Part shown: positions 2,777-7,393 of the stretch, piece after piece | Layout: each line of letters starts with the position of its first letter | Numbering within the stretch: the stretch's first letter is position 1 | Assembly: GCF_017348835.2 (NCBI RefSeq) | Contig: NZ_CP071375.1 | Strand: one strand, 5' to 3' | Origin: Escherichia coli | GTDB lineage: Bacteria; Pseudomonadota; Gammaproteobacteria; Enterobacterales; Enterobacteriaceae | DNA: 64,000 bases | Notes under the pieces: generated by a model | Told to the model about the DNA's origin: nothing | What the model saw: only the letters and a program-made list of their open reading frames with translations | The model's database searches: none | Position numbers and translations under genes: made by a program

Positions 2777-3067
2777 ATGGAATATAAAGATCCAATGCAT
2801 GAGCTGTTGAGCAGCCTGGAACAGATTGTTTTTAAAGATGAAACGCAGAAAATTACCCTGACGCACAGAACAACGTCCTGTACCGAAATTGAGCAGTTAC
2901 GAAAAGGGACAGGATTAAAAATCGATGATTTCGCCCGGGTTTTGGGCGTATCAGTCGCCATGGTAAAGGAATGGGAATCCAGACGCGTGAAGCCTTCAAG
3001 TGCCGAACTAAAATTGATGCGTTTGATTCAAGCCAACCCGGCATTAAGTAAGCAGTTGATGGAATAG
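2777..3067 (+). CDS. yiaG: XRE-type HTH transcriptional regulator YiaG
   Basis: 96-aa ORF with HTH segment (DDFARVLGVSVAMVKEWE); position between yiaF and cspA. Confidence 0.8.
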   Translation: MEYKDPMHELLSSLEQIVFKDETQKITLTHRTTSCTEIEQLRKGTGLKIDDFARVLGVSVAMVKEWESRRVKPSSAELKLMRLIQANPALSKQLME

Positions 3068-3119
3068 ACTTTTATCCACTTTATTGCTGTTTACGGTCCT
3101 GATGACAGGACCGTTTTCC

Positions 3120-3347
3120 AACCGATTAATCATAAATATGAAAAATAATTGTTGCATCACCCGCCAATGCGTGGCTTAATGCACATCAACGGTTTGACGT
3201 ACAGACCATTAAAGCAGTGTAGTAAGGCAAGTCCCTTCAAGAGTTATCGTTGATACCCCTCGTAGTGCACATTCCTTTAACGCTTCAAAATCTGTAAAGC
3301 ACGCCATATCGCCGAAAGGCACACTTAATTATTAAAGGTAATACACT
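3120..3347 (+). promoter_or_regulatory. cspA promoter (-35 TTGCAT 3152..3157, -10 CTTAAT 3175..3180) and ~159-nt 5'UTR
   Basis: Hexamers with 17-bp spacing read directly; a long leader starting near ACGGTTTGACG (3189) is the known cspA cold-shock UTR. Confidence 0.7.
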
Positions 3348-3560
3348 ATGTCCGGTAAAATGACTGGTATCGTAAAATGGTTCAACGCTGACAAAGGCTT
3401 CGGCTTCATCACTCCTGACGATGGCTCTAAAGACGTGTTCGTACACTTCTCTGCTATCCAGAACGATGGTTACAAATCTCTGGACGAAGGTCAGAAAGTG
3501 TCCTTCACCATCGAAAGCGGCGCTAAAGGCCCGGCAGCTGGTAACGTAACCAGCCTGTAA
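3348..3560 (+). CDS. cspA: Cold shock protein CspA
   Basis: 70-aa [24 protein letters not shown]… matching CspA. Confidence 0.97.
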
Positions 3561-3587
3561 TCTCTGCTTAAAAGCACAGAATCTAAG

Positions 3588-3617
3588 ATCCCTGCCATTT
3601 GGCGGGGATTTTTTTAT
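3588..3617 (+). terminator. Rho-independent terminator of cspA
   Basis: GC hairpin ATCCCTGCC/GGCGGGGAT followed by a T7 run. Confidence 0.7.
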
Positions 3618-3747
3618 TTGTTTTTCAGAAAATAAATAATCGATCGCGTAATAAAATCTAGTATTATTTTTGTGAAAAATAAATTTGGGTGCAATGAGAA
3701 TGCGCAACGCCGTAAGAAAGGCGGGAATAACTTCCCGCCGAAGACTC

Positions 3748-3900
3748 TTACTCTTTCAAATTGCAGGCTAAAAATGCCGCCAGCTCATAACTCCCCTGTT
3801 TAATATGCAATTCACACAGTGAATCTCTTATCATCCAGGTGAAAAATAAAAGCGTGAAACAAATCACTATTAAAGAAAGCAATCTATATTTCTGCGGCAT
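3748..3900 (-). CDS. hokA: Hok-family membrane toxin (type I toxin-antitoxin), intact 50-aa ORF
   Basis: Minus-strand translation from 3900 gives MPQKYRLLSLIVICFTLLFFTWMIRDSLCELHIKQGSYELAAFLACNLKE*; below the ORF-track cutoff, found manually. Confidence 0.85.
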   Translation of the reverse strand: MPQKYRLLSLIVICFTLLFFTWMIRDSLCELHIKQGSYELAAFLACNLKE

Positions 3901-3949
3901 TCCCAGCCCCCTGTGTGTGTAAGTTCACAGAGATATTGCAATTGCCTCC

Positions 3950-5100
3950 GGATAAGTAAGGGGAGATTGCACTATGCAAATGCAGCATCTGATGGTTGGC
4001 TATCCTAAGTACTACCAAACGGCCGATTATGCGTTGAGGCTTTCAGTGATGGCTGATATAGCAACAATGAGAATGAAGGCTCTGCACTTCTGGGATAAAC
4101 ACGGTATTTCTGCAGCTTCTGAAGCCTTTGGCGTGTCCTGCCGCACGCTTTACTGGTGGCGTCAGTTACTGAACAAGGAAGGACCTGAGGGGCTAATCCC
4201 GCACAGTAAGGCACCTCTGGTGCGACGAAAAAAACACTGGCATCCCGATGTGCTGAAAGAGATTCGACGCCTCAGGACAGAGCTGCCGAACCTCGGTAAA
4301 GAGCAGATTTTTGTTCGCCTGAAGCCCTGGTGCGAACAGCGCTATCTGGCCTGTCCGAGTGTTTCCACCATCGGCAGAATGATCGCTGCCGCACATGATA
4401 AAATGCGGATGATACCTGTGCGTCTGGGATCGCGGGGGAAGGCACTGCTTGTCAAAAAGCGGTCTGCCAAACCCCGCAGGCCAAAGCACTACCGCCCGGT
4501 AAAGACAGGTGAGCTCATTGGGATGGACGCCATTGAGCTCAGAATGGGCGAACTGCGTCGCTATGTCATCACCATGATCGACGAATGCAGCAATTACGCG
4601 CTGGCGCTGGCTGTGCCGTCACTCAACAGTGATATCGTCAATCACTTCTTCAGCCGCGCAGCCCGGTTGTTCCCGGTCGGTATCAGCCAGATAATCACAG
4701 ATAACGGAAAAGAGTTCCTGGGAAACTTCGACAAAACGCTGCAGGAAGCCGCTATCAAACACCTCTGGACCTATCCCTACACGCCAAAAATGAACGCTAT
4801 CTGTGAACGTTTTAACCGGACGTTAAGAGAGCAGTTTATTGAATTTAATGAGATTTTACTCTTTGAAGATCTGGCGCTATTTAACCAGAAGCTGGCGGAA
4901 TATCTGGTGCTGTATAACAGCAAAAGACCCCACAAGGCGCTCGCACTAATGACGCCCGTGGAATATATTTTAAAAGAGAATAAAAATTGCAATATGTGGT
5001 GGACCCATACAGTGTGTTGATTTCCAACGAGTAAGAGGCTAACCTTATGGTGTCTATGCATAGAGGGGCCTCACTTTGATTTATAGTCAGGTGGGGCTTT
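3950..5100 (+). mobile_element. Putative IS481-family-like insertion sequence; boundaries not resolved
   Basis: Single-ORF DDE transposase in the place K-12 carries IS150; I could not identify terminal inverted repeats by eye, so the ends are approximate. Confidence 0.3.
3974..5020 (+). CDS. DDE-type transposase/integrase (rve core; IS481-family-like)
   Basis: 348-aa ORF with N-terminal HTH-like segment and integrase core motifs (GMDAIE…ITDNGKEF…YPYTPKMNAICERFNRTLRE); true start may be a downstream Met. Confidence 0.7.
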   Translation: MQMQHLMVGYPKYYQTADYALRLSVMADIATMRMKALHFWDKHGISAASEAFGVSCRTLYWWRQLLNKEGPEGLIPHSKAPLVRRKKHWHPDVLKEIRRLRTELPNLGKEQIFVRLKPWCEQRYLACPSVSTIGRMIAAAHDKMRMIPVRLGSRGKALLVKKRSAKPRRPKHYRPVKTGELIGMDAIELRMGELRRYVITMIDECSNYALALAVPSLNSDIVNHFFSRAARLFPVGISQIITDNGKEFLGNFDKTLQEAAIKHLWTYPYTPKMNAICERFNRTLREQFIEFNEILLFEDLALFNQKLAEYLVLYNSKRPHKALALMTPVEYILKENKNCNMWWTHTVC

Positions 5101-5281
5101 TCTCTGTCTGCCTTTCGGTGAATACCTGAGACAAACAGTCTCAAGCACCTGTGGCTATTCTAGCTTAATAAGTTTGTTTCTTCTCCTTGATATTATCCTA
5201 AAAAAATCTCATAAAATTAATATATGAGATAATCTTTATTCAGCAGAAGATTATTAAAGGTTGCTGTATTATTTAGCGATA

Positions 5282-5312
5282 AAAAAAGCCTGCCAGATGG
5301 CAGGCTTTTTAA
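5282..5312 (-). terminator. Hairpin terminator downstream of glyS
   Basis: AAGCCTGCC-AGAT-GGCAGGCTT palindrome flanked by A/T runs. Confidence 0.7.
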
Positions 5313-5323
5313 TAACGGCGTTA

Positions 5324-7393
5324 TTACTGCAACAGCGAAATATCCGCAACGCGCAGGAACAGTTCGCGCAGTTTCTCCAGCATGGTCAGACGGTTGATAC
5401 GCAATTCTTTGTCATCAACCATGACCATCACTTTATCGAAGAAGGCATCGACCGGTTCACGCAGCTCTGCCAGTTCGACCAGCGCATCCTGGTAACGACC
5501 TTCCGCAAAGTACGGCTCCAGCTTGTCACGTAGCACCACAACCTGCATCGCCAGTTTAATTTCTTCCGGCTCTTTCAGAGTAGAGGCATTCACGCGATCG
5601 CTCAGCACTTCGTCAGATTTCGCCAGGATGTTAGATACACGTTTGTTCGCCGCCGCCAGTGCTGCAGCTGCTTCCAGGGTACGGAAGTGCGATACCGCTT
5701 TCATGCGGGCATCGAAATCAGCCGGACGAGTCGGACGACGCGCCAGTACCGCCTGGATGGTGTCAACGGTATAACCTTCGTCCTGATACCAGGCGCGGAA
5801 GCGACCGAGCATAAAGTCGATAACATCATCAACTACGTTGGCATTAGTCAGCTTATCGCCATACAGACGCACCGCTTCTTCGGTCAGCGTTTGCAGATCA
5901 AGGTTGAGGTTCTTCTCAACGATAATTCGCAGCACGCCAAGTGCGGCACGACGCAGCGCAAACGGGTCTTTGTCGCCTTTCGGATGCTGACCGATACCGA
6001 AGATACCCGCCAGAGTATCCATCTTATCAGCAATCGCCAGCGCACAAGCTACCGGGTTGGACGGCAGGTCATCACCGGCAAAGCGCGGCTGATACTGCTC
6101 ATTCAGCGCGACGGCTACGTCTTCCGCTTCGCCATCGTGACGCGCGTAGTGCATCCCCATAACGCCTTGGGTGTCGGTGAACTCGAAGACCATGTTGGTC
6201 ATCAGGTCACACTTAGACAGCAGGCCCGCACGGGTTGCGTGGTTAACGTCAGCGCCAATCTGTTCGGCGATCCAGCCAGCCAGCGCCTGGATGCGGTCAG
6301 TCTTGTCACGCAGCGTACCCAGCTGTTGCTGGAACAGCACGGTTTGCAGGCGCGGCAGGTTATCTTCCAGACGTTTTTTACGGTCGGTGTTGAAGAAGAA
6401 CTCGGCATCAGCCAGACGTGGACGAACGACTTTCTCGTTACCAGAGATAATTTGCTGCGGATCTTTCGATTCGATGTTGGCAACGAAGATAAAGTTCGGC
6501 AGCAGTTTGCCGTCGTTCGCATACACCGGGAAGTACTTCTGGTCACCTTTCATGGTGTAAACCAGCGCTTCAGACGGCACAGCGAGGAATTTCTCTTCAA
6601 ATTTCGCGGTCAGAACGACCGGCCACTCCACCAGCGAAGCCACTTCTTCCAGCAGGCTTTCGCTTAAGTCAGCGTTACCGCCAATCTTACGCGCTGCTTC
6701 TTCGGCATCGGCTTTAATCTTCGCCTTACGTTCTTCGTAATCGGCGATGACTTTCCCGCGCTCACGCAGAATTTCCGGATACTGATCGGCGTTATCGATG
6801 GTGAATTCCGGCTCGCCCATAAAGCGGTGGCCGCGAATCACGCGATCGGACTGAATGCCCAGAATGGTTGCCGGAATGACTTTGTCGCCCAGCAGCAGGG
6901 TCACGGTGTGCACCGGACGCACGAAGTGCACGTCGCTTGCACCCCAGCGCATCAGTTTCGGAATCGGCAGTTTCGCCAGCGAAGTCGCAACCATATTCGG
7001 CAGCAGTGCTTCAGTGCTTTCGCCCTTCACATGGGCGCGATACAGCAGCCATTCGCCTTTATCGGTAGTCAGACGCTCAGCCTGGTCAACGGTAATACCG
7101 CAACCACGCGCCCAACCTTCTGCCGCTTTGCTCGGTTTGCCTTCAGCGTCGAACGCCTGGGCAATCGCCGGGCCGCGTTTTTCGATTTCACGATCCGGTT
7201 GCGCTTCCGCCAGGTTAGCTACTTTCAGCGCCAGACGACGCGGAGCAGCAAACCATTGAACGGTGCCGTGTGCGAGGCCTGCGTTATCCAGCTCCGCAGT
7301 AAAGTTCGCAGCAAAGGACTCTGCCAGGCTGCGCAGTGCTTTTGGTGGCAGCTCTTCAGTGCCGATTTCCACCAGAAAAGTTTTCTCAGACAT
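5324..7393 (-). CDS. glyS: Glycine--tRNA ligase beta subunit
   Basis: 689-aa [23 protein letters not shown]…; adjacent to glyQ. Confidence 0.97.

What the first reader, a model, noticed from the sequence alone, without database searches (positions are those of the whole stretch)
3748..5100. Intact hokA toxin gene flanked by a different insertion sequence from the IS150 found in K-12
The 50-aa Hok ORF is intact on the minus strand, ending 188 bp after cspA. Only 73 bp upstream of its start (in hokA orientation) a DDE transposase gene begins, where I recall IS150 (insJ/insK) in K-12. If the IS sits in the hokA leader, this is an independent IS insertion at the same toxin locus, consistent with recurrent inactivation of chromosomal hok loci. 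If the leader and an antisense Sok region are intact, the toxin system could still be functional.
Basis: partly seen in the sequence, partly recalled or inferred. Interest (0 to 1): 0.55.

Follow-up and report, generated by a model that had tools for sequence, protein, structure and literature searches.

The report
Promoter-seeking insertion sequence splits hokA toxin locus
An intact E. coli hokA toxin gene has been cut off from its own control region by a 1.1-kb mobile element that is not K-12's IS150, and that, across dozens of other sites, lands just upstream of bacterial promoters, here the promoter of the antitoxin RNA.

Summary
hokA (3748-3900, minus strand) is intact. A 1,096-bp IS481-family insertion sequence (3916-5011) lies 15 nt upstream of its start codon, with a 5-bp target duplication. 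It is unrelated to IS150.

Alignment with IS-free alleles shows the element sits inside the hokA mRNA leader. hokA with its ribosome-binding site and 3' end lies on one side. The sokA antitoxin gene, the mokA start codon, the 5' leader element and the hokA promoter lie on the other. The toxin is therefore most likely silent.

The unexpected part is why the element is there. An identical IS occupies the same nucleotide in three hokA haplotypes, two of which have IS-free twins with 100% identical flanks. It also occupies the equivalent position in at least four other Rfam-confirmed hok loci.

Across 53 distinct insertion sites, the DNA next to the right end reads as a sigma-70 promoter: TTG at +6 to +8, a 17-bp spacer, then TAnnnT. 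The rnpB promoter is one of the targets. The IS therefore appears to integrate directionally just upstream of -35 hexamers, and Sok promoters are favoured targets. Eight literature searches found no prior description of this.

The parts
3748..3900 (-). hokA toxin ORF (50 aa plus stop), intact
   Evidence: ORF list. Pfam HOK_GEF E = 1e-23. Annotated hokA in identical DNA of PE164.
3687..3739 (-). hokA mRNA 3' region: a terminator-like hairpin (3720-3739) and a candidate fold-back (fbi) segment that pairs with the mRNA 5' end
   Evidence: Terminator-like site. Predicted duplex of -19.7 kcal/mol between the 5' end (5150 downward) and 3687-3723. Function is inferred.
3901..3915 (-). The last 15 nt of the native leader still attached to hokA (CACAGGGGGCUGGGA, the Shine-Dalgarno region). 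It includes the left target duplication CTGTG at 3911-3915.
   Evidence: Sequence. Junction analysis against the IS-free allele.
3916..5011 (+). IS481-family insertion sequence, 1,096 bp, with ends TGTGTAAG...CCCATACA. An 11-bp perfect subterminal inverted repeat ATATTGCAATT lies at 3933-3943 and 4985-4995.
   Evidence: The insert is 1,101 bp relative to the IS-free allele. The ends are defined by 8 independent copies with perfect 5-bp duplications. Inverted repeat I17. 100% identical copies in many genomes.
3974..5020 (+). Transposase ORF (348 aa). It has no stop codon inside the IS and terminates at TGA 5018-5020 in the flanking DNA, inside the -35 hexamer.
   Evidence: ORF list. NCBIfam IS481 221.6 bits. 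Pfam rve, rve_3 and HTH_32. Distribution of flank-encoded tails.
5012..5016 (.). Right copy of the target duplication, GTGTG. It has one mismatch to the left copy CTGTG; other strains have a perfect CTGTG here.
5017..5045 (+). Putative sokA promoter: -35 TTGATT (5017-5022), 17-bp spacer, -10 TAACCT (5040-5045). It directly abuts the target duplication.
   Evidence: Sequence. The same TTGnnn-17-TAnnCT arrangement is conserved across 8 hok-type leaders. Promoter activity is inferred by analogy with Sok of plasmid R1.
5052..5107 (+). Putative sokA antisense RNA. It overlaps the mokA start codon and ends in a hairpin followed by a U-run.
   Evidence: Fold of -25 kcal/mol, z = -4.9. It lies inside the Rfam RF01794 match. 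The ends are inferred.
5017..5150 (-). Detached 5' part of the hokA mRNA leader: the 5' end/tac element (about 5140-5150), and the mokA ribosome-binding site and start codon (5059-5061)
   Evidence: Rfam sok/hok-leader match at 5006-5150, 104 bits, against 119.6 bits for the uninterrupted allele. In the IS-free allele mokA is in frame with hokA.
4777..5061 (-). Chimeric 94-aa ORF: the first 16 mokA codons running into the IS antisense strand
   Evidence: ORF list, compared with the intact 70-aa MokA.
5157..5162 (-). Candidate -10 (TAGAAT) of the hokA promoter, 6 nt upstream of the leader 5' end. No good -35 is present.
   Evidence: Read from the sequence. The consensus scan did not report it. 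Inferred.

Best explanation
A 1,096-bp IS481-family insertion sequence transposed into the hokA/sokA type I toxin-antitoxin locus and made a 5-bp duplication. The insertion point is 15 nt upstream of the hokA start codon, inside mokA (after codon 16), and immediately upstream of the -35 hexamer of the antisense sokA promoter.

Consequences. The hokA ORF, its Shine-Dalgarno region and its 3' fold-back region are separated by 1.1 kb from the hokA promoter, the 5' leader element, the mokA translation start on which hok translation depends, and the Sok target. The toxin gene is therefore intact but most likely silent. sokA keeps its core promoter, body and terminator.

Why here. This IS integrates in one orientation, with the 3' end of the transposase gene facing the target, so that its 5-bp duplication abuts the -35 hexamer of a sigma-70 promoter that fires away from the element. 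The Sok promoter is such a target. It has been hit repeatedly and independently in hokA and in paralogous hok loci. An insertion that keeps Sok and disconnects Hok is also harmless to the cell, so such insertions survive.

Shown: the anatomy, the independence of the insertions and the promoter-like target motif. Inferred: silencing of hokA, activity of the sokA promoter, and whether target recognition works through promoter-bound RNA polymerase or through the DNA sequence directly.
For: Anatomy
- The insert is 1,101 bp relative to the IS-free O157 allele, and the junctions are resolved to the base.
- In the IS-free allele mokA is in frame with hokA. In the window it is truncated to a chimeric ORF.
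- The Rfam hok-leader/sok match ends at the IS: 104 bits here against 119.6 bits for the uninterrupted allele.
- The Sok hairpin folds at -25 kcal/mol, z = -4.9. The 5'/3' mRNA duplex is predicted at -19.7 kcal/mol.

The element is mobile
- 100% identical copies occur at unrelated loci, and 1,222 of 5,426 E. coli genomes carry related copies.
- 8 of 9 examined junction pairs have perfect 5-bp duplications.

Independent hits at the same site
- The IS shows 0 differences over 1,096 bp across three hokA flank haplotypes that differ from each other at 16-20 of 662 positions.
- Haplotypes B and C have IS-free twins with 100% identical flanks.
- The same relative position is occupied at prophage hokD in E2348/69 and PapM-36-2, with a different duplication, TCTCC.
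- In all, 8 of 9 hok-type flank clusters have the IS at this position. Four of these besides hokA are confirmed as hok leaders by Rfam.

Promoter targeting
- 177 right junctions collapse to 61 distinct flanks, or 53 after merging the hok sites.
- TTG at flank positions 6-8 in 23 of 53 sites, against a 1.6% background (p = 1.6e-27). TAnnnT at 17-bp spacing in 9 of those 23, against 14 of 2,030 control TTG sites (p = 3.5e-13).
- G at the extended -10 position in 29 of 53 sites.
- Offset control: TAnnnT at position 29 in 15 of 53 sites, against 0-4 at every other offset.
- Reading outward from the left end, only 1 of 16 sites has TTG.
- One target is the rnpB promoter. The annotated rnpB 5' end lies 7 nt after the predicted -10.
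Against: - No expression data exist. hokA could still be transcribed by read-through from its own promoter across the IS, since no terminator-like site was found on that strand inside the IS.
- The 5-bp duplication in this window is imperfect (CTGTG / GTGTG).
- About 40% of distinct sites show no promoter-like flank. Some of these are decayed or rearranged copies, but not all were checked.
- Many metagenome junctions lack the left end, so they are not verified as simple insertions.
- Other IS types also cluster in the leader: IS150 at least twice, and IS1. Some force other than this element's specificity therefore acts on the locus too, either selection or survivorship.
- The sokA promoter assignment rests on sequence and on analogy with plasmid R1.
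Confidence: 0.75

Rival explanations
1. Selection alone. ISs accumulate in the hokA leader because inactivating a chromosomal toxin is advantageous or neutral. This IS landed there by chance and was retained.
For: About 48% of 5,426 complete E. coli genomes have the cspA-glyS spacer interrupted, while the hokA ORF is at least 80% intact in 5,394 of them. At least four other IS events map to the same 60-bp stretch: IS150(+) with a deletion in K-12, IS150(-) with a CTT duplication in ST131 and others, another IS150(-) with a different duplication, and IS1A. A further IS1B sits in the 3' UTR.
Against: Selection cannot place three independent insertions at the same nucleotide and in the same orientation. 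It also cannot explain the equivalent position in paralogous hok loci with different duplicated bases, or the same promoter-shaped flank at non-hok sites such as rnpB. Insertions into the 153-bp ORF would inactivate the toxin equally well, yet they are rare.
Confidence: 0.15
2. The system is still functional. hokA is transcribed by read-through from its own promoter, or from an outward promoter in the IS, and remains under Sok control or has become deregulated.
For: The ORF and its Shine-Dalgarno region are intact. No terminator-like site was found on the minus strand within the IS. The hokA promoter, leader and sokA persist on the other side.
Against: In the R1 paradigm, hok translation requires coupled mok translation. 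A mok start-codon mutation abolishes toxicity (PMC9841398, read). Here mokA ends in the IS, 860 nt before hokA. The Sok target is no longer near hokA. No promoter-like site faces hokA from the IS left end. A deregulated toxin would not be expected to persist in 11 genomes.
Confidence: 0.1
3. One ancestral insertion into hokA, later spread among lineages by homologous recombination. Under this reading the shared position does not indicate site specificity.
For: All 11 carriers share position and orientation. E. coli recombines frequently.
Against: The IS is identical while the flanks differ by 2.4-3%, with differing sites as close as 36 bp to the left and 1 bp to the right of the element. IS-free twins 100% identical to the flanks exist for two haplotypes. 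The hokD and other hok sites have different duplications and different left flanks.
Confidence: 0.07
4. The target motif is read directly by the transposase as DNA sequence, for example a TTG-proximal contact. It only resembles a promoter, and RNA polymerase plays no part.
For: The strongest signal (TTG) lies next to the joint. Several targets lie inside genes (dcuS, an Rha-family gene), where a functional promoter is not documented.
Against: Information reappears 17 bp further on as TAnnnT, together with the extended -10 G. That is the exact geometry of sigma-70 recognition, with little signal in between. A monomeric DNA contact spanning 30 bp on one side only would be unusual. This rival concerns mechanism only. 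It does not change the anatomy.
Confidence: 0.3

Closest known systems
hokA::IS150 of E. coli K-12, and IS186 next to hokC and hokE (Pedersen & Gerdes 1999, as summarised in bioRxiv 10.1101/2025.08.07.668861, read; details beyond that are from my own knowledge)
   Same: A chromosomal hok locus with an intact toxin ORF and an IS close to, but not in, the reading frame. The regulatory leader is disrupted.
   Different: A different element: IS481 family with a single ORF, not IS3-family IS150. A different insertion point: 15 nt rather than 32 nt upstream of the ATG. It is a clean insertion, whereas K-12 also lost 39 bp including the sokA -10 and the mokA start. Here sokA and its core promoter are preserved.
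hok/sok of plasmid R1 (parB)
   Same: A Hok/Gef toxin, an upstream mok frame, an antisense Sok RNA overlapping the mok start, 5'/3' mRNA pairing, and an Rfam RF01794 match.
   Different: The locus is chromosomal and here it is physically split by an IS. mokA is in frame with hokA.
IS481 and IS1002 of Bordetella (IS481 family)
   Same: A single DDE (rve) transposase with an N-terminal HTH, about 1 kb long, TGT...ACA ends, short target duplications, many copies per genome, and an ORF that runs into the right end.
   Different: IS481 is reported to duplicate a short palindromic NCTAGN site (my own knowledge). This element has an asymmetric, one-sided target shaped like a sigma-70 promoter.
Elements that target a functional landmark rather than a short sequence: yeast Ty3 at Pol III start sites, Tn7 at attTn7, and IS1397/IS621 at REP sequences (my own knowledge)
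   Same: Precise, oriented insertion at a fixed distance from a recurring genomic feature, in a position that usually spares genes.
   Different: Here the landmark would be the bacterial sigma-70 promoter. No interaction with the transcription machinery has been shown.

Membership tests
[quoted passage not shown] | Hok/Gef-family toxin ORF of about 50 aa | tested here: met
   Pfam HOK_GEF E = 1e-23. Annotated HokA in identical DNA.
[quoted passage not shown] | Upstream mok frame whose translation is coupled to hok | tested here: not met
   Intact and in frame in the IS-free allele. In the window it is cut after codon 16 and runs into the IS.
[quoted passage not shown] | Antisense Sok RNA gene with its own promoter and terminator, overlapping the mok start | tested here: met
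   Met at sequence level only: Rfam RF01794 at 104 bits against a threshold of 59, TTGATT-17-TAACCT, and a hairpin at -25 kcal/mol with z = -4.9. Expression was not testable.
[quoted passage not shown] | One contiguous mRNA carrying the 5' tac element, leader, hok ORF and 3' fbi | tested here: not met
   The leader is separated from the ORF by 1,101 bp. The tac/fbi complementarity itself is retained.
IS481 family insertion sequence | Single DDE (rve) transposase with an N-terminal HTH, matching the family model | tested here: inconclusive
   NF033577 scores 221.6 bits against a cutoff of 224, over the full model length. Pfam rve, rve_3 and HTH_32, and a weak LZ_Tnp_IS481 match. RefSeq labels identical-DNA copies 'IS481 family transposase'.
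IS481 family insertion sequence | Terminal inverted repeats (TGT...ACA) and short target duplications | tested here: met
   Ends are TGTGTAAG...CCCATACA with an 11-bp perfect subterminal repeat. Perfect 5-bp duplications in 8 of 9 junction pairs.
IS481 family insertion sequence | Mobility: identical copies at unrelated loci and an empty site available | tested here: met
IS150 (IS3 family), the element at this locus in K-12 | Two overlapping ORFs with a programmed frameshift, IS150 ends TGTACTG..., 3-bp duplication | tested here: not met
   A single 348-aa ORF. IS3 model scores 98 bits against a cutoff of 160. The ends differ.

The most novel reading that the evidence does not exclude
This IS481-family element uses sigma-70 promoters as integration beacons, probably promoters occupied by RNA polymerase holoenzyme. 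It inserts in a fixed orientation, with its 5-bp duplication at about -40 to -36, directly abutting the -35 hexamer. This would be a mode of target selection not described for bacterial insertion sequences, as far as my literature searches reached. It would also explain an old puzzle: ISs sit next to, but not in, hok genes because strong constitutive Sok promoters lie inside hok leaders. They attract the element, and the resulting Hok-off/Sok-on products are viable.
Probability: 0.45. Interest if true: 0.8.

Novelty: new variant of a known kind. Interest (0 to 1): 0.6.

Why it matters
Taken alone, the locus is one more example of a chromosomal hok toxin gene orphaned by an IS, a pattern known since 1999.

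What adds value is the cause. The same element hits the same nucleotide repeatedly, in hokA and in paralogous hok loci. Its target logo over 53 sites is the sigma-70 promoter consensus in one orientation.

If confirmed experimentally, this would be a bacterial counterpart of transcription-machinery-guided integration such as Ty3. It would offer a natural tool for marking or insulating promoters. It would also give a mechanistic reason why hok/sok loci are IS magnets.

It matters for annotation as well. The transposase has no stop codon of its own and often borrows the TGA of TTGA in the -35 hexamer, which is why its annotated length varies from site to site.

Tried and rejected
- Alternative definitions of the IS ends. 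I tested 3917-5012 with duplication TGTGT, a 1,097-bp element with a 4-bp duplication, and a 1,095-bp element with a 6-bp duplication. The 1,096-bp TGT...ACA element with a 5-bp duplication fits 8 of 9 junction pairs, including other hokA carriers. I adopted it. The window's right copy then has one mismatch, which remains unexplained.
- Target mimicry of the IS's own left end. The left end (TGTGT AAGTTC...) does not resemble the target motif, so I rejected this.
- The motif as a mere stop-codon requirement. TGA from TTGA explains why 15 of 53 sites end the ORF after two flank codons. It cannot explain the -10 signal at 17-bp spacing.
- An outward promoter at the IS left end driving hokA. The consensus scan found none.
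- Strand of Sok from Rfam. The Rfam 'sok' match lies on the hok-mRNA strand and begins at the mRNA 5' end. It marks the leader region, not the strand of Sok.
- Genome-contig scan. It returned only two metagenome-assembled contigs labelled as non-enterobacterial, probably mis-binned. This was uninformative.
- The 93%-identical relatives are decayed pseudogenes at fixed sites: between galF and yegH, and between iss and iroB on ColV-type plasmids. They are not useful for target analysis.
- Literature. Eight searches found no description of this insertion, of this IS next to hok loci, or of promoter-directed IS targeting. The library is incomplete and ISfinder was not available, so I could not determine the element's ISfinder name.
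Full report
**1. What is in the window**

The region is the E. coli yiaG-cspA-hokA-glyS neighbourhood.
- cspA is at 3348-3560 (+), with its thermoregulator RNA match at 3188-3615 (501 bits).
- hokA is at 3748-3900 (-). It is 50 aa, intact, and matches Pfam HOK_GEF with E = 1e-23.
- glyS ends at 5324.
- A 348-aa ORF at 3974-5020 (+) lies between hokA and glyS.
- This ORF carries rve/rve_3 and HTH domains. It scores 221.6 bits on the NCBIfam IS481 model (cutoff 224) and only 98 bits on the IS3 model (cutoff 160).
- The whole 1,763-bp cspA-glyS spacer is 100% identical to pig strain PE164.

**2. It is an insertion, and where exactly**

E. coli O157:H7 TX 376-2 has the same spacer without the element: 662 bp, 99.3% identical.
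- Alignment shows a 1,101-bp insert in the window and resolves the junctions to the base.
- I compared eight further copies at unrelated sites: an intergenic site in E2348/69, the garK-rnpB spacer, dcuS, a yiiG-family gene, an Rha-family gene, another chromosomal site, prophage hokD, and hokA in another strain.
- This comparison defines the element as 1,096 bp with ends TGTGTAAG...CCCATACA, at window 3916-5011, flanked by a 5-bp duplication that is perfect in 8 of 9 cases.
- In the window the duplication is CTGTG (3911-3915) and GTGTG (5012-5016). Other hokA carriers have a perfect CTGTG on both sides.
- The transposase frame has no stop inside the element. It ends at TGA 5018-5020 in the flank.
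- 100% identical copies occur in many genomes, including EPEC E2348/69. Related copies occur in 1,222 of 5,426 complete E. coli genomes, with up to 38 places per genome.

**3. What the insertion does to the locus**

In the IS-free allele, a 70-aa mokA frame starts 60 nt upstream of hokA and is in frame with it.
- The Rfam RF01794 model covers the leader from the mRNA 5' end to the hokA start codon. It scores 119.6 bits on the uninterrupted allele and 104 bits in the window, where its last bases run spuriously into the IS.
- On the opposite strand lies a promoter-like TTGATT-17-TAACCT (5017-5045). It is followed by a roughly 55-nt RNA that overlaps the mokA start (5059-5061) and ends in a strong hairpin with a U-run (-25 kcal/mol, z = -4.9). 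I read this as sokA.
- The mRNA 5' end (5150 downward) can pair with 3687-3723, downstream of hokA, at -19.7 kcal/mol. This is the expected tac/fbi arrangement.
- The IS sits 15 nt upstream of the hokA ATG, after mokA codon 16, and directly against the sokA -35.
- So hokA, its ribosome-binding region and its 3' end are on one side. The hokA promoter, tac, the mokA start, the Sok target and sokA are on the other. mokA now reads into the IS as a 94-aa chimeric ORF.
- In the R1 system, hok translation depends on mok. A mok start-codon mutation suppresses toxicity (PMC9841398). The toxin gene is therefore most likely silent. This is an inference; there are no expression data.
- No promoter-like site faces hokA from the IS, and no terminator-like site was found inside the IS on the hokA strand. 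Read-through transcription cannot be excluded.

**4. Comparison with K-12 and the rest of the species**

K-12 derivatives carry IS150 (+ orientation) 16 bp further upstream, inside the sokA promoter spacer. They also lack 39 bp that include the sokA -10, the sokA 5' part and the mokA start.
- ST131 and many other strains carry IS150 in the opposite orientation, with a CTT duplication at the position equivalent to window 5074-5076.
- Strain 98197 has a further IS150(-) with a different duplication, plus IS1A.
- F2_81 has both the IS481-type element and IS150(-).
- Strain 53 has IS1B in the hokA 3' untranslated region.
- At most 2,831 of 5,426 genomes have an uninterrupted spacer. This is an upper bound, because IS1-sized inserts are joined by the search tool.
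- By contrast, the hokA ORF is at least 80% present in one piece in 5,394 genomes.
- The window's arrangement occurs in 11 genomes.

**5. The same nucleotide has been hit repeatedly**

Among the 11 carriers, the IS shows 0 differences over 1,096 bp (one strain has a single change). Their flanks fall into three haplotypes that differ at 16-20 of 662 positions, some within 36 bp to the left and 1 bp to the right of the element.
- For two haplotypes, IS-free genomes exist whose spacer is 100% identical to the flanks. For the window's haplotype the best IS-free match is 99.5%.
- This indicates at least two, and probably three, recent independent insertions at the same position and in the same orientation.
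- In E2348/69 and PapM-36-2, another copy sits next to a prophage hokD. It lies 14 nt upstream of the start codon, with a TCTCC duplication, and again directly against a TTGCCT-17-TAACCT motif.

**6. The target is shaped like a promoter**

I scanned viral, metagenome and genome collections with the last 23 bases of the element. Together with the copies already fetched from complete genomes, this gave 177 right junctions, which fall into 61 distinct flanks.
- Nine flanks are hok-type leaders. Eight of these have the IS at the same relative position. Rfam confirms a hok leader abutting the IS end in L014, L129, L086, L127 and L160. L160 is the cluster with the IS at a shifted position.
- After merging the hok sites into one, 53 sites remain.
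- Flank positions 6-8 read T, T and G in 35, 36 and 35 of the 53 sites. Position 27 is G in 29 sites. Positions 29, 30 and 34 read T, A and T in 31, 30 and 26 sites.
- That pattern is TTGnnn, a 17-bp spacer, then (TG)nTAnnnT: the sigma-70 promoter consensus.
- TTG occurs in 23 of 53 sites, against a 1.6% background (p = 1.6e-27). TAnnnT at 17-bp spacing occurs in 9 of those 23, against 14 of 2,030 TTG sites in the window (p = 3.5e-13).
- An internal control that ignores local composition gives the same answer. TAnnnT starts at flank position 29 in 15 of 53 sites, at position 30 in 4, and at 0-3 sites at every other offset.
- Reading outward from the left end gives TTG in only 1 of 16 sites, and the left flank has no consensus. 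The preference is therefore one-sided and oriented.
- One target is a textbook promoter. In UTME-9 the element lies upstream of GTGACA-17-TATACT, and the annotated rnpB 5' end is 7 nt after that -10.
- A frequent phage target, TTGAAA-17-TAAATT, lies upstream of terminators and a holin-endolysin cassette. It may be a late promoter, but I did not verify this.
- About 40% of distinct flanks lack the motif. Some are decayed or rearranged copies.

**7. Interpretation**

- I attribute the position chiefly to the element's own specificity for promoters. The Sok promoter is a favoured target because it lies inside the hok leader.
- The product keeps the antitoxin and disconnects the toxin, so it is viable.
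- Selection, or simple survivorship, probably also shapes the locus, since IS150 and IS1 cluster there too.
- Whether recognition works through promoter-bound RNA polymerase or through direct DNA reading is open. The reappearance of information exactly at the -10 and extended -10 favours the former.

**8. Novelty**

IS-disrupted chromosomal hok loci are known (Pedersen & Gerdes 1999, as cited in bioRxiv 10.1101/2025.08.07.668861).
- Eight searches found no report of this element at hok loci, or of promoter-directed integration by a bacterial IS.
- The library is incomplete and ISfinder could not be consulted.
- I therefore rate the locus itself as a new member of a known kind. I rate the targeting behaviour as a probable new variant of target-specific transposition, resting on comparative sequence evidence only.

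Noticed in passing
window 3974-5020; loci L004-L009, L014: The transposase ORF has no stop codon inside the IS, so its C-terminus depends on the insertion site. In 15 of 53 sites it ends after exactly two flank-encoded codons, using the TGA of TTGA in the -35 hexamer (or TAA). In 21 of 53 sites there is no stop within 19 codons. This explains the varying annotated lengths (1047, 1071 and 1089 nt).
   Followed up: partly
window 5012: The right copy of the 5-bp duplication starts with G here and in PE164 and F2_81, but with C in the other eight hokA carriers, where it matches the left copy. This could be a point mutation after insertion or a peculiarity of this event. It is unexplained.
   Followed up: partly
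L002 (K-12 derivative) 2872-4314; equivalent to window 5033-5072: The K-12 IS150 insertion is not a simple one. 39 bp of the leader are missing next to it, covering the sokA -10, the sokA 5' part and the mokA start codon. IS150 has also entered the same few bases (CACTTTG) at least twice more, in the opposite orientation and with different duplications (CTT in ST131-type strains, CACTT in strain 98197).
   Followed up: partly
L187 (strain 53) 335-1102; equivalent to about window 3690: IS1B is inserted in the hokA 3' untranslated region, near the predicted fold-back (fbi) segment, in a haplotype otherwise identical to IS-free strains.
   Followed up: no
L013 (strain 1579) 854-1225: A 393-bp insertion lies between cspA and the hokA 3' end and carries an ORF annotated as a second yidD (membrane protein insertion efficiency factor). 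Its origin was not examined.
   Followed up: no
window 3700-3771 (+): A 23-aa ORF overlapping the hokA 3' end on the opposite strand is annotated in relatives as YsaE or as a hypothetical protein.
   Followed up: no
L059 (ColV-type plasmid, between iss and iroB); L060 (chromosome, between galF and yegH): Decayed copies of a related IS, 93% identical with a frameshifted or truncated transposase, are fixed at these two sites. They account for most of the 1,118 records in the 90-95% identity band.
   Followed up: partly
L030 3978-5024 and flank 5016-5500: A diverged relative of the IS, with a clearly different transposase sequence but the same terminal 23 bases, sits upstream of TTGAAA-17-TAAATT. 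That motif is followed by terminators and a holin-endolysin cassette in phage contigs. It may be a phage late promoter.
   Followed up: partly
L023, L049, L050: A recurrent phage target, AGCGC TTGCTC-17-TAACCT, looks like another small antisense-RNA promoter but gave no Rfam match. In L049 the left flank does not match the duplication, which suggests a rearrangement.
   Followed up: no
L181, L182: The only matches in the one-genome-per-species collection are contigs of metagenome-assembled genomes labelled Candidatus Spongiihabitans and Lachnospiraceae. These are probably mis-binned enterobacterial DNA.
   Followed up: no
L086 2656-2776: A group II intron match (Rfam RF00029, 65 bits) lies on the same metagenome contig as an IS-disrupted hok locus.
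   Followed up: no
window 5006-5150: The Rfam family named 'sok antitoxin' (RF01794) matches on the hok-mRNA strand, from the mRNA 5' end to the hok start codon. It behaves as a model of the hok leader and does not give the strand of Sok.
   Followed up: partly
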